Assembly: GCF_013315695.1 (NCBI RefSeq)
Contig: NZ_CP054353.1
Source of the DNA: Escherichia coli
Lineage (GTDB): Bacteria > Pseudomonadota > Gammaproteobacteria > Enterobacterales > Enterobacteriaceae
Direction: 5' to 3' (one strand)
DNA: 64,000 nucleotides
Shown here piece by piece: positions 6,914-12,988 of the stretch (position 1 is its first letter; the number at the start of each line of letters is the position of its first letter). The position numbers and the translations under genes are program-made. The notes under the pieces are model-generated. The model was given only the letters and a program-made list of their open reading frames with translations. It did no database searches and had not been told where the DNA came from.

Positions 6914-7645
6914 GTGGCTTATTACAGCATTGGTGATGTTGCTGAACGTTGCGGGATTAATCCTGTCACTCTCCGGGCCTGGCAACGCCGCTACGGTTTG
7001 TTAAAACCACAGCGCAGTGAAGGCGGACACCGACTCTTTGATGAAGAAGACATACAACGCATCGAAGAGATCAAGCGTTGGATAAGTAATGGCGTCCCTG
7101 TAGGCAAAGTTAAAGCATTACTGGAAACCACCAGCCAGGATACGGAAGATGACTGGAGCCGCCTGCAAGAAGAGATGATGTCAATTCTTCGTATGGCTAA
7201 TCCTGCCAAACTACGCGCGAGAATTATTTCACTGGGTCGAGAGTACCCAGTAGATCAATTGATTAATCATGTTTACCTTCCTGTTCGCCAGCGTCTCGTG
7301 CTTGATCACAACACCTCCCGCATTATGAGCAGTATGTTTGACGGCGCATTAATTGAATACGCAGCAGCCTCGCTTTTCGAAATGCGCCGTAAGCCCGGTA
7401 AAGAAGCCATTCTGATGGCGTGGAATGTTGAAGAGAGAGCACGATTGTGGCTGGAAGCATGGCGTTTATCATTGTCAGGATGGCACATTTCTGTTCTTGC
7501 TGATCCCATTGAATCGCCGCGCCCGGAACTGTTCCCGACGCAAACATTGATTGTCTGGACAGGCATGGCACCAACGAGAAGGCAAAACGAACTTTTACAA
7601 CACTGGGGTGAGCAAGGTTATAAAGTCATCTTCCATGCCCCCTAA
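6914..7645 (+). CDS. bluR: MerR-family repressor BluR/YcgE
   Basis: 243-aa ORF with N-terminal MerR HTH ([30 protein letters not shown]). Confidence 0.85.
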
Positions 7646-7865
7646 TTTCACCTTTATCCCGCCCCTTAGACAGAATGTTATAATCTGAACCCACAACAGC
7701 GTTTGTACCGGAGCTGGTCCATTACAAAATGCTCACCGGGAGAATTCAGGTAATCCCCCTTTCACACTTTGTACATATCACAGCCAAAGGACAGACCAGA
7801 TTGAAGTGGTAAAACCGATCGTGCACACTACGCAGTCTCACAACTAACAAGAGGTTATTATCCTG

Positions 7866-8270
7866 ATGGATCAGGTCGTTGTTTTTCAAAAGATGTTTGA
7901 GCAAGTGAGAAAAGAGCAAAACTTCTCCTGGTTTTATTCAGAATTAAAACATCACCGTATTGCACATTACATTTATTATCTAGCTACGGATAACATCAGA
8001 ATTATTACTCACGATGACACGGTTTTGTTATTAAGAGGAACCAGGAACCTGTTAAAAGTTAGTACGACCAAGAACCCTGCTAAAATAAAAGAGGCCGCAT
8101 TGCTTCATATTTGCGGAAAATCTACATTTCGGGAATACTGTTCAACACTGGCAGACGCGGGCGTTTTCCGGTGGGTTACTGATGTTAATCATAACAAACG
8201 CAGTTACTACGCCATTGATAATACGCTTTTATATATTGAAGATGTAGAAAACAATAAACCATTAATCTAG
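7866..8270 (+). CDS. ycgX: YcgX, DUF1398-like protein
   Basis: 134-aa ORF MDQVVVFQKMFEQVRKEQNF... matches recalled YcgX. Confidence 0.8.
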   Translation: MDQVVVFQKMFEQVRKEQNFSWFYSELKHHRIAHYIYYLATDNIRIITHDDTVLLLRGTRNLLKVSTTKNPAKIKEAALLHICGKSTFREYCSTLADAGVFRWVTDVNHNKRSYYAIDNTLLYIEDVENNKPLI

Positions 8271-8481
8271 CTAAAGTTGGATGCTTAAAAAATGCTTCAT
8301 AATTCAGTAAGGCATTAGCATAATGGAAATAAAAGTGCAGAGACTATTCATATGGATGAGTAATACTATCTTTTTATTGCCACCCATAAATAATCACCAG
8401 ATCAATACTATCAACTTGATATTTGAAATGTGATCACTTGACTTTTGATACGTTATTTTATAGCGGTTAACATATTTATAA

Positions 8482-8530
8482 AAAACAATGGGCGTGCCAT
8501 ACGCCCGTTTCAATACTTAACGCACATGTG
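8482..8530. repeat. Hairpin-containing ~50-bp repeat, copy A (GGGCGTGCCATACGCCCG stem-loop followed by TTTCAATACTTAAC), homologous to the icd terminator region
   Basis: About 85% identical to 9343-9395 by eye; possible ycgX terminator. Confidence 0.6.
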
Positions 8531-8974
8531 TTTTGGTTTAGTCATCATCCGGTTATATGTATTTTAGCCAGGAATGGGTTAAACCATTCCTATATAACTA
8601 AAAAATTGAAACCTTATTCTCATGTCATGCTTATATTCGTCATTATCGTTATATAAAAAGGCCAACCATAATGTTTAGCAAATTGGCACAAAGTAGTATA
8701 AAGGCTATGTTTTAATTACAGGATGTTCAGTCATTTGAATGTATAACATTTTAGCTAAACAAATCTAAAACGAAGTGAATAATTTAATGTTTTCACTAAA
8801 TCTCATTTTGTTTAATATCTATTGAGATTTCTTGCTTTAAATTTTGTTTTATATAAACAATGGTTTTAATTTTTAATTAATTTGTTTTTTGAGGGGGTAA
8901 TATACTCATATGCAAAATCAAGAAATAAAAATCCTAATGAACCATATTAAATACCGTGGGATAAGACATAACAA

Positions 8975-9298
8975 ATGAAGTGGATAGTAATTGACACGGT
9001 AATTCAACCTACATGCGGTATATCTTTTTCAGCCATATGGGGTGATATGAAAATGATCATCTGGTATCAATCCACTATATTTCTTCCTCCTGGCAGGATA
9101 TTTACACCGGTTAAGTCTGGTATTATCCTTAAGGATAAAGAATATCCTATTACTATTTATAACATCGCACCATTCAACAAGGATTTATGGAGTTTACTCA
9201 AAAGCAGTCAAGAGTGTCCTCCAGGAGAAAGCAAAATAACAAATAAATGTTTGCATAATAGTTGCATTATAAAAATATGCCCATATGGGCTCAAGTAA
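8975..9298 (+). CDS. iraM: Anti-adaptor protein IraM (RssB inhibitor, stabilises RpoS; PhoP-regulated)
   Basis: 107-aa [26 protein letters not shown]... matches recalled IraM/YcgW. Confidence 0.9.
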
Positions 9299-9342
9299 TG
9301 GGCTTCATATAAATATTCTCGACATGCTATTAATAATATCCA

Positions 9343-9395
9343 CATAAATAAAACAACGGGCGTGTTATACGCCCGTTTCAATATTTAACACATGT
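9343..9395. terminator. Hairpin, repeat copy B; probable bidirectional intrinsic terminator shared by iraM and icd
   Basis: GGGCGTGTTATACGCCCG stem-loop between the iraM stop (9298) and the icd stop (9401), flanked by T/A-rich runs. Confidence 0.6.
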
Positions 9396-9400
9396 AGAGA

Positions 9401-10651
9401 TTACATGTTCTTGATGATTGCATCACCAAACTCTGAACATTTCAGCAGTTTAGCGCCTTCCATCAGACGTTCGAAGTCATAGGTTACGGTCTTGGCATTG
9501 ATTGCGCCTTCCATACCTTTAACAATCAAGTCTGCGGCTTCAGTCCAGCCCATATGGCGTAACATCATCTCAGCGGAGAGAATAATAGAGCCTGGGTTTA
9601 CTTTGTCCTGACCGGCATATTTCGGCGCAGTACCGTGGGTGGCTTCAAACAGGGCGCATTCGTCACCGATGTTTGCGCCAGGGGCGATACCGATACCGCC
9701 AACCTGCGCTGCCAGGGCGTCAGAAATGTAGTCACCGTTCAGGTTCATACAGGCGATAACATCATATTCAGCCGGACGCAGCAGGATCTGTTGCAGGAAT
9801 GCATCAGCAATCACGTCTTTAATGACGATCTCTTTGCCGGTGTTCGGGTTTTTAACTTTCAGCCACGGGCCGCCGTCGATCAGTTCACCGCCAAACTCTT
9901 CACGCGCCAGCTGGTAGCCCCAGTCTTTAAACGCGCCTTCGGTGAACTTCATGATGTTGCCTTTGTGCACCAGGGTCACAGAGTCACGATCGTTAGCAAT
10001 TGCGTATTCGATCGCTGCACGAACCAGACGTTTGGTGCCTTCTTCAGAACACGGCTTAATACCGATACCGCAATGTTCCGGGAAGCGAATTTTCTTCACG
10101 CCCATCTCTTCACGCAGGAATTTAATCACTTTCTCAGCGTCGGCAGAGTCTGCTTTCCATTCGATACCCGCATAAATGTCTTCCGAGTTTTCACGGAAGA
10201 TAACCATATCGGTCAGTTCAGGGTGTTTAACCGGGCTTGGAGTGCCCTGATAGTAACGTACCGGACGCAGGCAGATGTAGAGATCCAGTTCCTGGCGCAG
10301 AGCAACGTTGAGAGAGCGAATACCGCCACCAACCGGAGTGGTCAGCGGGCCTTTGATGGCAACGCGATATTCACGAATCAGATCAAGGGTTTCAGCAGGT
10401 AGCCAGACATCCTGACCATAAACCTGTGTGGATTTTTCACCGGTGTAAATTTCCATCCAGGAGATTTTACGCTCGCCTTTATAGGCTTTCTCGACTGCAG
10501 CGTCGACCACTTTCAGCATGGCTGGGGTTACATCTACACCGATTCCATCACCTTCAATGTAAGGGATAATCGGATTTTCAGGAACGTTGAGTTTGCCGTT
10601 TTGCAGGGTGATCTTCTTGCCTTGTGCCGGAACAACTACTTTACTTTCCAT
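9401..10651 (-). CDS. icd: Isocitrate dehydrogenase (NADP)
   Basis: 416-aa [41 protein letters not shown]...; full length, not interrupted by prophage. Confidence 0.97.
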
Positions 10652-10822
10652 TCACCTCTCCTTCGAGCGCTACTGGTTTGCTCGTCTGCCACCACGTTGC
10701 ATATGCGTTTGCGTCCTGCGATACGGATGCGTTAGAGCAATTTTTTGTTAATGATTTGTAATTGGCTTGTCAATACTACCCTATTGTTTGCCGTCATGAA
10801 AGATGCGCGTTATTAGGCTATA
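10652..10822. promoter_or_regulatory. Divergent icd / original rluE promoter region
   Basis: 171-bp region between the icd start and the K-12-like rluE start codon at 10823. Confidence 0.5.
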
Positions 10823-10897
10823 ATGCGGCAATTCATAATCTCTGAAAATACCATGCAAAAAACTTCTTTTAGACCAAAGACAGTATTTTTCTGACCT
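10823..10897 (+). pseudogene. rluE: Remnant of the original rluE 5' end (17 K-12-like codons MRQFIISENTMQKTSFR, then out-of-context PKTVFF*)
   Basis: Read directly: ATGCGGCAATTCATAATCTCTGAAAATACCATGCAAAAAACTTCTTTTAGA; homology to recalled K-12 RluE N-terminus ends at 10873. Confidence 0.7.
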
Positions 10898-11112
10898 TCA
10901 AATAAGGTATTAAATATCAATAATTTATATCAGATTTTAAGCAATAAAAAAAACCACCAGAGATAACTAACAAGGTGCTATTTGGTCAAAATTTGACATT
11001 ACTCGATTCAGCGACTATCTCACTTTGAGCACTATTGGGAAAATTATCAAAAGTCATAGTTGAAGCGACAAGCAACGAGTAAATTATGGCATCCCCCCTT
11101 TTTGAGGTTCAC

Positions 11113-11199
11113 ATGAAACGCTTTGCACTGATAGCTGTGAAACTCGTTGCCTTTACTGGTTCTGCATCTGCTGCAACCGAAGAAATCAACTTCAAGTAA
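11113..11199 (+). CDS. Small ORF (28 aa) with signal-peptide-like N-terminus, inside the inserted segment
   Basis: MKRFALIAVKLVAFTGSASAATEEINFK*; GAGGT Shine-Dalgarno 5 nt upstream of the ATG. Confidence 0.35.
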   Translation: MKRFALIAVKLVAFTGSASAATEEINFK

Positions 11200-11232
11200 C
11201 AGAAACACTATATAACAATGGAGTGTTGACAA

Positions 11233-11682
11233 ATGGATACTACCGAAGAACGCAATGGAACATATTTCTACAGAGGACACCCGAACCTGTCCAAAATAGA
11301 ACTACTCAACGTCATATTCCTTGAAGAATTCTGTAAGGAATTGGGGATTGATTCGGTATCAGGTGCAGCAATCTTATCTGGTCAACCGTGGCTGGGTACA
11401 AGAGCGAAGCCGCAAGGGGCAACCCTGGGAACAAGTGTTGTCTCAAAGTATGCGCGTATACTGATGAGAGATGCACGCATGCCTTTTGGTATTTCTGTTC
11501 ATACACCAGTGGGTGTAAGGATGCAGAAATCTAATAAGCTTGCTGCAATTATCGCTCGTTGGGTCCCGTGGATTGGTTGGGCTTCACTGTCGATGAGTCT
11601 TTACAGGGTTTCGACTCGTACCCAGGAAAAATACAATCTGATTGCCAAACCTCAAGACCGTATTAAGTGGACTTCCTTCTAA
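11233..11682 (+). CDS. Hypothetical basic protein (149 aa), first gene of an inserted two-gene cassette; candidate toxin or effector
   Basis: Track ORF; GGAGTG upstream; net charge about +9 by residue count; no signal peptide or TM segment; not recognised. Confidence 0.6.
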   Translation: MDTTEERNGTYFYRGHPNLSKIELLNVIFLEEFCKELGIDSVSGAAILSGQPWLGTRAKPQGATLGTSVVSKYARILMRDARMPFGISVHTPVGVRMQKSNKLAAIIARWVPWIGWASLSMSLYRVSTRTQEKYNLIAKPQDRIKWTSF

Positions 11683-12017
11683 TGGCGACAACAATCACAG
11701 ACGAAGTTTTAGCACTGTTCCGTGATGAGATTCCAGGTTATCAGGATGACCACGGGAAGGAAATTCCGTTAGAACTGGACTCTGATTTGTTCGACTATCC
11801 ACGAGATGATTTAGAGGACGCTATACGGAAATACAAAGAGAGGTTTGGGATTAACCTGGATAATCTGGACTGGTCTTTGTACCTTCCATGGGAGTCTGCA
11901 CCATTGCTTCAACGATGGTTCAAGCTCAAGCGGGAAGAGGTAGAAACAACACGTTTACCGTTAACTGTACGGATGTTTGCAGAATCAGCAGAAGCGGGAA
12001 AATGGCTGTATCAGTAG
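11682..12017 (+). CDS. Hypothetical acidic protein (111 aa), second gene of the cassette; candidate immunity protein or antitoxin
   Basis: ATG overlaps the upstream stop (TAATG at 11680-11684); net charge about -10 (24 D/E versus 14 K/R); an in-frame ATG at 11667 is an alternative start. Confidence 0.6.
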   Translation: MATTITDEVLALFRDEIPGYQDDHGKEIPLELDSDLFDYPRDDLEDAIRKYKERFGINLDNLDWSLYLPWESAPLLQRWFKLKREEVETTRLPLTVRMFAESAEAGKWLYQ

Positions 12018-12036
12018 AATAAAAAAGAAGGCTGCG

Positions 12037-12099
12037 ATGCCCCTCTTATTACTGCTGATGATGGTAGTGGTAAAGCATCATCCTAAACTTGAACAGTGA
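12037..12099 (+). CDS. Tiny hydrophobic ORF (20 aa, MPLLLLLMMVVVKHHPKLEQ), speculative
   Basis: ATG preceded by GAAGG at appropriate spacing; located 20 bp after the cassette stop. Confidence 0.2.
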   Translation: MPLLLLLMMVVVKHHPKLEQ

Positions 12100-12349
12100 A
12101 GTGCTGTCACCCATCAGTAATACAGAAACACTATTTTTCATACCAGTATTTATTCAATTCATCAATGTAAAATGTGTTCATTGGGCCATATTTATCACCA
12201 TGCAGCCACACAACCGCTGCTCACTAACCCAGGTATTGATGAAACCGCGCTGAAGAGCCTGAACCCTGAACCTCTAACGAGTACCTTAAAAGTCCAATGC
12301 AATCCGACACTGTGCTACCCTCTGCGTAAAGCTCTATTTGGAATTTACC

Positions 12350-12988
12350 ATGAAATACTTTAGCGATTCTAAATCTTCTTTTAGAAAAAAACAGGTTAGT
12401 CGACTAAACTCGCAACACTCCACTAAGCGTAAACCTGAAAACCAGCCCACGCGTGTGATCCTGTTCAATAAACCCTACGATGTTCTTCCGCAGTTCACCG
12501 ATGAAGCCGGACGCAAAACATTAAAAGAATTCATCCCGGTTCAGGGCGTTTATGCAGCAGGTCGTCTTGACCGCGATAGCGAAGGGTTACTGGTGCTGAC
12601 CAATAACGGCGCGTTGCAGGCGCGTTTAACCCAGCCGGGTAAACGCACCGGAAAAATCTATTATGTGCAGGTGGAAGGTATTCCCACACAAGACGCACTT
12701 GAAGCCTTGCGCAATGGCGTAACCTTAAATGATGGCCCTACCCTGCCCGCAGGCGTAGAGCTGGTTGACGAACCCGCGTGGTTATGGCCGCGGAATCCAC
12801 CAATTCGTGAACGCAAAAGTATTCCCACCAGCTGGCTTAAGATCACCTTATATGAAGGACGTAATCGCCAGGTGCGCCGCATGACCGCCCATGTTGGTTT
12901 CCCCACGCTGCGACTGATTCGCTATGCGATGGGTGATTACTCTTTGGATAATCTTGCCAACGGCGAATGGCGAGAAGCGACAGATTAA
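12350..12988 (+). CDS. rluE: 23S rRNA pseudouridine2457 synthase RluE, mosaic allele with divergent N-terminus
   Basis: Track ORF 12338..12988 (TTG); ATG at 12350 gives [39 protein letters not shown]...; body matches recalled RluE from PENQPTRV onward. Confidence 0.85.

What the first reader, a model, noticed from the sequence alone, without database searches (positions are those of the whole stretch)
9299..9400. icd is intact with no e14 prophage; iraM lies 102 bp beyond the icd stop
In K-12 the e14 element is integrated into the 3' end of icd. Here icd (416 aa, full length) is followed directly by a terminator hairpin and iraM, so this is an unoccupied e14 attachment site.
Basis: partly seen in the sequence, partly recalled or inferred. 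Interest (0 to 1): 0.3.

Follow-up and report, generated by a model that had tools for sequence, protein, structure and literature searches.

The report
Empty prophage site at E. coli icd
The isocitrate dehydrogenase gene here is whole and carries no inserted prophage, which is the ordinary state of this site in more than half of sequenced E. coli strains.

Summary
An intrinsic terminator hairpin lies between them (stem-loop 9355-9377, T-run 9345-9354). The window is 100% identical to the chromosome of E. coli MSB1_4I.

In K-12 the same 102-bp spacer (99/102 identical) joins the icdC pseudogene to iraM, on the far side of the 15.2-kb e14 element. The window is therefore the arrangement expected with nothing inserted. 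No e14 DNA and no e14-type or phage-21-type integrase is in the window, and the MSB1_4I chromosome holds no intE-like DNA and no second icd 3' fragment.

The state is common. Of 5426 complete E. coli genomes:
- 3015 have icd and iraM contiguous.
- 157 have icd with neither prophage nor iraM.
- 385 have an e14-type junction.
- 1686 have a phage-21-type integrase next to icd.

Three refinements apply. The attachment site lies inside icd (about 9529-9565), not in the spacer, and phage 21 relatives share it. The last 165 nt of icd are about 2.5 times more polymorphic than the rest, with alleles shared with phages. iraM sits in an 868-bp cassette bracketed by two copies of the icd terminator.

Verdict: already known, low interest.

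The parts
9401..10651 (-). icd, NADP-dependent isocitrate dehydrogenase, 416 aa, intact
   Evidence: ORF. NCBIfam equivalog NF005425 over 1-416/416, 859 bits. Pfam Iso_dh. RefSeq protein WP_000444487.1 in the identical genome.
9401..9565 (-). Last 165 nt of icd, the segment that e14 and phage 21-type phages carry as their own copy. Phage/chromosome homology begins at about 9559-9565, so the recombination site (attB) lies at this upstream edge, roughly 9529-9565.
   Evidence: K-12 attL/attR comparison and phage 21, ev017 and D2 attP alignments. K-12 annotation places the e14 left end at icd nt 1087.
9348..9400 (-). First 53 nt after the icd stop, holding the icd intrinsic terminator (stem-loop 9355-9377, T-run 9345-9354). 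This stretch is also carried by phage 21-type phages, and homology to them ends at 9348.
   Evidence: Terminator scan, fold, phage matches ending at query position 273 = window 9348. The same boundary holds for E. albertii and Citrobacter icd loci.
9299..9400 (.). 102-bp spacer between the convergent stop codons of iraM and icd (the finding's coordinates)
   Evidence: It is 99/102 identical to the K-12 icdC-iraM spacer.
8975..9298 (+). iraM, anti-adaptor protein IraM, 107 aa
   Evidence: NCBIfam NF007393, 171 bits against a cut-off of 121. 104/107 identical to K-12 IraM.
9345..9392 (.). Copy 2 of a 48-nt direct repeat (the working icd terminator module)
   Evidence: the repeat finder family D1, 85% identity, spacing 868.
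8477..8524 (.). Copy 1 of the 48-nt direct repeat: a second terminator-like hairpin in the icd orientation, on the far side of iraM
   Evidence: D1. Terminator scan hit 8506..8490 on the minus strand. Conserved in all iraM-bearing strains examined, K-12 included.
8525..9344 (.). AT-rich iraM + ymgK cassette between the two repeat copies (GC 0.25-0.33). Together with one repeat copy it forms an 868-bp presence/absence polymorphism.
   Evidence: Strain KN93 has a single repeat copy joining the ymgL flank directly to icd. 157 genomes share that junction. Composition.

Best explanation
This is the empty bacterial attachment site (attB) in the 3' end of icd that e14 and the lambdoid phage 21 family use, in E. 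coli strain MSB1_4I. icd is transcribed on the minus strand to its native stop codon and ends at its own intrinsic terminator. 102 bp from that stop lies the stop codon of the convergent chromosomal gene iraM.

In lysogens, a tyrosine integrase recombines the phage with icd about 165 nt before the stop. The phage supplies a replacement copy of those 165 nt plus the terminator, and the original 3' end is displaced to the far end of the prophage as icdC. None of this has happened here, or it has been cleanly reversed.

Shown: gene integrity, contiguity, absence of prophage DNA, and population frequency. Inferred from published work on e14 and phage 21, not tested here: that the site is still usable by these integrases.
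For: - The window is 100% identical over 3001 bp to NZ_LR898874.1, E. coli MSB1_4I.
- Gene order bluF-bluR-ycgX-ymgL-ymgK-iraM-icd matches K-12 with e14 and icdC removed.
- The spacer is 99/102 identical to the K-12 icdC-iraM spacer.
- icd is full length by the equivalog model.
- There is no e14 DNA and no IntE, XisE, 21-type Int or Xis similarity in 64 kb.
- Anchor plus intE in distant blastn gives one place in the MSB1_4I chromosome. Anchor plus 21-type int in megablast also gives one place.
- Tally over 5426 complete genomes: 3015 contiguous iraM-icd, 157 contiguous ymgL-icd, 385 e14-type junction, 1686 21-type int next to icd.
- IntE and the 21-type Int are 60% identical over 372 aa. The literature states that both insert at the same icd site (PMC12803456, text and reference 55; PMC6379469).
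Against: - The first 11 nt of the e14 attL/attR identity in K-12 (ATGCTGCGCCA) read ATGTTACGCCA here, two synonymous changes. Usability by e14 integrase specifically is therefore not shown. The same TTA variant sits at the chromosomal side of 21-type junctions in O157:H7 and ECOR38.
- One sequence distantly related to the 21-type int exists somewhere else in the chromosome. I could not locate it.
- Plasmids of the strain were not examined.
Confidence: 0.95

Rival explanations
1. The site is empty now but 'healed'. A phage 21-type prophage was once integrated here and left its own version of the icd 3' end and terminator behind, by homologous exchange between the phage-borne copy and icdC before loss. 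On this reading the present 3' end of icd is partly of phage origin.
For: - In 8 prophage-free alleles, nucleotide diversity is 0.045 in the last 165 nt against 0.018 in the first 1086 nt.
- Across the aligned 601-nt junction segment (15 chromosomal and phage sequences), there are 49 variable columns in the 218 nt that phages carry, against 19 in the 235 nt of icd just upstream.
- The window's 218 nt differ at 7 sites from phage ev017 and from the ECOR38 phage 21 junction. In the 165 coding nt alone, the window differs at 12 sites from K-12 icdC and 17 from the e14-borne copy.
- At sites 253/265/268 of that alignment the window shares the C/C/A haplotype of phage 21 and ev017 attP.
Against: - The closest allele is a chromosomal, prophage-free one (strain 042, 5 differences).
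- The same haplotypes circulate in both phages and chromosomes, so direction of transfer cannot be read from them.
- The spacer beyond 9348 is the ordinary chromosomal one.
- This reading does not conflict with the site being unoccupied today.
Confidence: 0.35
2. An e14-like element is present in this strain but sits at another locus, so the empty icd site does not mean the strain lacks e14.
For: One extra place appears in the MSB1_4I chromosome when a 21-type int gene is added to the query in distant mode.
Against: - Adding intE alone gives no extra place in distant blastn.
- The 21-type int gives no extra place in megablast.
- No second icd 3' fragment exists in the chromosome, and every e14-type or 21-type element examined here carries one.
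- The extra place is therefore a distant integrase relative of another specificity.
Confidence: 0.03
3. The contiguity is an assembly artefact: a prophage was collapsed out of the sequence.
For: None found.
Against: - Four independent complete genomes share the junction at 99.9-100% identity.
- 3015 genomes have the same arrangement.
- Reading frame, spacer length and terminator are all intact.
Confidence: 0.01

Closest known systems
E. coli K-12 icd / e14 / icdC / iraM locus (attL and attR of e14)
   Same: - Same flanking genes.
- Same 102-bp icdC-iraM spacer (99/102).
- Same terminator hairpin next to iraM.
- Same 48-nt second terminator copy beyond iraM.
   Different: - The 15.2-kb e14 element and the displaced 165-nt icdC are absent.
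- The icd 3' end differs at 12 nt from icdC and 17 nt from the e14-borne copy.
- ICD has E398 and K414 where K-12 has D398 and E414.
Phage 21-type lambdoid prophages integrated in icd (ST131, O157:H7, LF82, NC101 NC-SV)
   Same: They use the same point in icd. Their own copy of the icd 3' end plus terminator is 93-97% identical to the window's and ends at the same base, 9348.
   Different: In those strains an integrase gene starts about 110 bp after the icd stop. Here that position is the chromosomal spacer and iraM.
Prophage-free, iraM-free icd locus of some B2-type strains (KN93, some ST131)
   Same: - Intact icd.
- Identical ICD protein (WP_000444487.1).
- Same terminator.
- Same ymgL-ycgX-bluR flank.
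   Different: Those strains have a single terminator copy and lack the 868-bp iraM + ymgK cassette.

Membership tests
Unoccupied attB(icd) of the e14 / phage 21 integrase family | Full-length icd continuous with the native chromosomal sequence downstream | tested here: met
   416-aa ORF. Equivalog match over 1-416/416. Spacer 99/102 identical to the K-12 chromosomal spacer beyond icdC.
Unoccupied attB(icd) of the e14 / phage 21 integrase family | No integrase, excisionase or other prophage DNA between icd and the chromosomal neighbour | tested here: met
   tblastn of IntE, XisE and 21-type Int and Xis against the window gives only chance hits (E >= 0.06). blastn of e14 finds nothing. Annotation of the identical genome agrees.
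Unoccupied attB(icd) of the e14 / phage 21 integrase family | No displaced duplicate of the icd 3' end (icdC) in the genome | tested here: met
   No repeat of the icd 3' end was reported in 7500-12500. The anchor holding all of icd gives a single place in the MSB1_4I chromosome in distant blastn.
Unoccupied attB(icd) of the e14 / phage 21 integrase family | Core sequence at the crossover point matches one that the integrases are known to use | tested here: inconclusive
   The window reads ATGTTACGCCATATGGGC where K-12 reads ATGCTGCGCCATATGGGT. The TTA variant is present at 21-type junctions in O157:H7 and ECOR38, so it is compatible with 21-type phages. No e14-type junction with this variant was examined.
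Unoccupied attB(icd) of the e14 / phage 21 integrase family | Site supports integration in vivo or in vitro | not testable with these tools
   Needs a lysogenisation or integrase assay.
NADP-dependent isocitrate dehydrogenase (Icd) | Full-length match to the curated equivalog model above its cut-off | tested here: met
   NF005425 859 bits (cut-off 490). TIGR00183 801 bits (cut-off 567).
IraM anti-adaptor | Match to the curated IraM model above its cut-off and near-identity to the characterised K-12 protein | tested here: met
   NF007393 171 bits (cut-off 121). 104/107 identical to K-12 IraM. RssB binding was not tested.
Intrinsic (rho-independent) terminator | G+C-rich hairpin immediately followed by a T-run on the transcribed strand | tested here: met
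   9-bp stem with 6 G-C pairs, 5-nt loop, tail GTTTTATTTA on the icd strand. Spacer fold z = -3.55. Termination itself was not tested.

The most novel reading that the evidence does not exclude
The iraM + ymgK cassette (8525-9344) may itself be the last remnant of an ancient phage that integrated at icd. On this reading copy 2 of the terminator (9345-9392) came in with the phage-borne icd 3' end, and copy 1 (8477-8524) is the original chromosomal terminator. iraM would then be a domesticated phage gene.

The evidence fits but does not prove it:
- The cassette is AT-rich and is bracketed by two copies of the icd terminator module.
- It is missing, with a single copy left, in 157 genomes.
- iraM has 65%-identical homologues next to stx2 in lambdoid phages.
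- No icdC relic is detectable beside copy 1, and the outgroups found were all occupied or too short to decide polarity.
Probability: 0.25. Interest if true: 0.3.

Novelty: already known. Interest (0 to 1): 0.08.

Why it matters
It matters little. Integration of e14 and phage 21 into icd, the duplicated 3' end, and the existence of strains without a prophage there have been described since the late 1980s and 1990s. The empty state is the commonest one in E. coli.

Three uses remain. First, the locus shows plainly that iraM is chromosomal and lies outside e14, which corrects a statement in the IraL paper (PMC4045071). Second, the tally gives an occupancy figure for this integration hot spot across 5426 complete genomes. 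Third, the repeat-bracketed iraM cassette gives a simple account of why some lineages lack iraM.

Tried and rejected
- Looked for an icdC relic beside terminator copy 1 (8525-8800) by local alignment to the icd 3' end. The score of 20 was at the shuffle mean of 20.5, so there is no relic.
- Searched Rfam across 7600-12500. Nothing neared a gathering score. The best hit in the spacer was tpke11 at 22 bits against 43, E = 0.19, taken as chance.
- PADLOC found nothing for IraM, YcgX or the STM2901/DUF1493 pair.
- Tried to read Hill et al. 1989, Wang et al. 1997 and Mehta et al. 2004. They are not held, so the exact crossover nucleotides are taken from sequence comparison, not from those papers.
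- Used the one genome-contig scan with the terminator pattern to find outgroups for the polarity of the iraM cassette. It returned E. albertii (decayed 21-type int at icd), three Citrobacter loci (two with e14-type int, one with only 1.1 kb of downstream sequence) and one likely contaminant contig. Polarity is unresolved.
- Could not locate the one distant 21-type-int relative, or the probable iraM paralogue, elsewhere in the MSB1_4I chromosome. The BLAST tool shows only the best place per record.

Full report
**What is at the coordinates.** The ORF list and the sequence show icd on the minus strand at 9401-10651 (416 aa). iraM is on the plus strand at 8975-9298 (107 aa). The two genes converge, and 9299-9400 is the 102 bp between their stop codons.

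The icd product matches the curated NADP isocitrate dehydrogenase equivalog over all 416 model positions (859 bits, cut-off 490). The iraM product passes the curated IraM model (171 bits, cut-off 121). On the icd strand the spacer holds a 9-bp, G+C-rich hairpin (9377-9355) followed by GTTTTATTTA. The spacer folds well below shuffled controls (z = -3.55).

**Where the window comes from.** A 3-kb stretch around the finding is 100% identical to the chromosome of E. coli MSB1_4I, a human rectal-swab isolate from Australia. Its annotation covers the rest of the window and lists ordinary chromosomal genes from ymgF to rne. The only mobile element is an IS2 inside ymgF.

**Comparison with K-12.** In MG1655 the order is rluE, icd, e14 (1196209-1211412), icdC (165 bp), 102 bp, iraM, ymgK, ymgL, ycgX, bluR, bluF.
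- The window has the same order without e14 and icdC.
- Its 102-bp spacer is 99/102 identical to the K-12 spacer between icdC and iraM.
- blastn of the whole e14 element against the window finds nothing.
- tblastn with IntE, XisE and a phage 21-type Int and Xis gives only chance-level hits, best E = 0.06.

The site is therefore empty.

**The rest of the genome.** The BLAST tool reports only the best place per record plus the number of places. I therefore joined an anchor (window 9299-10999, for which MSB1_4I ranks first or among the tied 100%-identical top hits) to the genes to be tested.
- Anchor plus intE, in the sensitive blastn mode, gives one place in the MSB1_4I chromosome. There is thus no intE-like DNA and no second copy of the icd 3' end elsewhere.
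- Anchor plus the 21-type int gives one place in megablast.
- Anchor plus both int genes gives two places in the sensitive mode. One distant integrase relative therefore exists somewhere.

That relative has no icd fragment with it, so it is not an icd-targeting element. I could not locate it.

**How common the empty state is.** Junction-specific queries against 5426 complete E. coli genomes gave the following.

| Arrangement at icd | Genomes |
|---|---|
| iraM and icd contiguous | 3015 |
| ymgL and icd contiguous (no prophage, no iraM) | 157 |
| K-12-type icd/e14 junction (many are laboratory K-12 derivatives) | 385 |
| Phage 21-type integrase gene next to icd (ST131, O157:H7, LF82 and others) | 1686 |

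The four classes account for 5243 genomes. An empty site is the majority state, and when the site is filled it is usually by a phage 21 relative, not e14. A 2019 survey of 638 genomes reported e14 at this locus in 19% (PMC6379469).

**Where the attachment site really is.** K-12 attL and attR become identical at icd nt 1087 (window 9565). Phage 21 and ev017 attP become identical to icd a few bases further on. The recombination site is therefore inside icd, about 165 nt before the stop, not in the spacer.

The phage-borne copy runs through the stop codon and the terminator and ends at window 9348, right after the T-run. IntE and the 21-type Int are 60% identical. The literature states that both insert at the same icd site (PMC12803456).

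At the edge of the homology the window reads ATGTTACGCC where K-12 reads ATGCTGCGCC, two synonymous changes. The same variant is on the chromosomal side of 21-type junctions in O157:H7 and ECOR38. It is thus compatible with 21-type integration. Use by e14 integrase was not tested.

**The 3' end is a mosaic.** Among eight prophage-free alleles, nucleotide diversity is 0.045 in the last 165 nt of icd against 0.018 in the first 1086 nt.
- The window's 165 nt differ at 12 sites from K-12 icdC and at 17 from the e14-borne copy.
- Over the 218 nt that phages carry, it differs at 5 sites from the prophage-free strain 042 and at 7 from phage ev017 and from the ECOR38 phage 21 junction.
- Haplotypes are shared between chromosomes and phages.

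This fits repeated swapping of this segment through integration and recombination, which, as I recall, was described for icd in the 1990s. GenBank record AF017626 appears to come from that work. It does not change the verdict that the site is empty now.

**The iraM cassette (noticed in passing, partly followed).** A 48-nt direct repeat (85% identical) lies at 8477-8524 and 9345-9392. Both copies are terminator hairpins in the icd orientation. They bracket the AT-rich iraM + ymgK segment, and the pair is conserved in every iraM-bearing strain examined, K-12 included.

Strain KN93 has one copy, which joins the ymgL flank directly to icd. 157 genomes share that junction. iraM is therefore part of an 868-bp presence/absence polymorphism bounded by the repeats.

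iraM homologues (70/107 aa identical) lie next to stx2B in Stx2 phages. The flank of copy 1 resembles the arm region that follows the terminator in e14-type elements. A phage origin of the cassette is possible. However, no icdC relic is detectable beside copy 1, and the outgroup loci I could retrieve did not settle which state is ancestral.

Whatever its origin, the locus shows that iraM is not part of e14, contrary to a remark in the IraL paper (PMC4045071).

**Verdict.** The feature is a well-known, very common state of a well-known integration site. Interest is low.

Noticed in passing
window 8477-8524 and 9345-9392 (cassette 8525-9344): Two 85%-identical copies of the icd terminator module bracket iraM and ymgK. 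157 complete genomes (KN93, some ST131) have a single copy and no iraM, so iraM is an 868-bp insertion/deletion polymorphism bounded by direct repeats. Which state is ancestral is not settled.
   Followed up: partly
window 8975-9298; L016 5004-5327; L017 5004-5327: iraM has homologues (70/107 aa, 71.6% nt) in many Stx2-converting lambdoid phages, lying between stx2B and the yjhS-like gene. One record annotates it as iraM.
   Followed up: partly
window 8431-8476: The flank of terminator copy 1 resembles the sequence that follows the terminator in e14-type elements of K-12 and Citrobacter, a region with repeated TTATCAAAA motifs. Identity is 76% over 100 nt with the hairpin included.
   Followed up: partly
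window 10874-12370 (ORFs 11233-11682 and 11667/11682-12017): A 1.5-kb insertion between icd and rluE carries an STM2901-family gene and a DUF1493 gene. It is flanked by 20-nt direct repeats (10859-10878 / 12371-12390). It is absent from K-12, O157 and ST131 and present at this place in 373 of 5426 genomes. No defence-system match; function unknown.
   Followed up: partly
window ~436-1990: ymgF is split by an IS2 insertion (IS2 transposase at about 551-1779), according to the annotation of the identical genome.
   Followed up: no
MSB1_4I chromosome outside the window (location unknown): Composite BLAST queries indicate one sequence distantly related to the phage 21-type int gene. They also indicate one further place that matches the iraM-containing stretch, probably an iraM paralogue.
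   Followed up: partly
L020 3866-4492; L021 9179-10132; L024 55-1179; L023: Findings from the genome-contig scan:
- The E. albertii type strain has a truncated 21-type integrase next to icd.
- Citrobacter sp. Cu233 and C. braakii ATCC 51113 carry e14-type integrases (94-97% aa identity to IntE) downstream of icd, so e14 relatives are not confined to E. coli.
- A 5-kb contig labelled as a Sporosarcina MAG carries an E. coli-like icd end and an e14-type int, and is probably contamination.
   Followed up: partly
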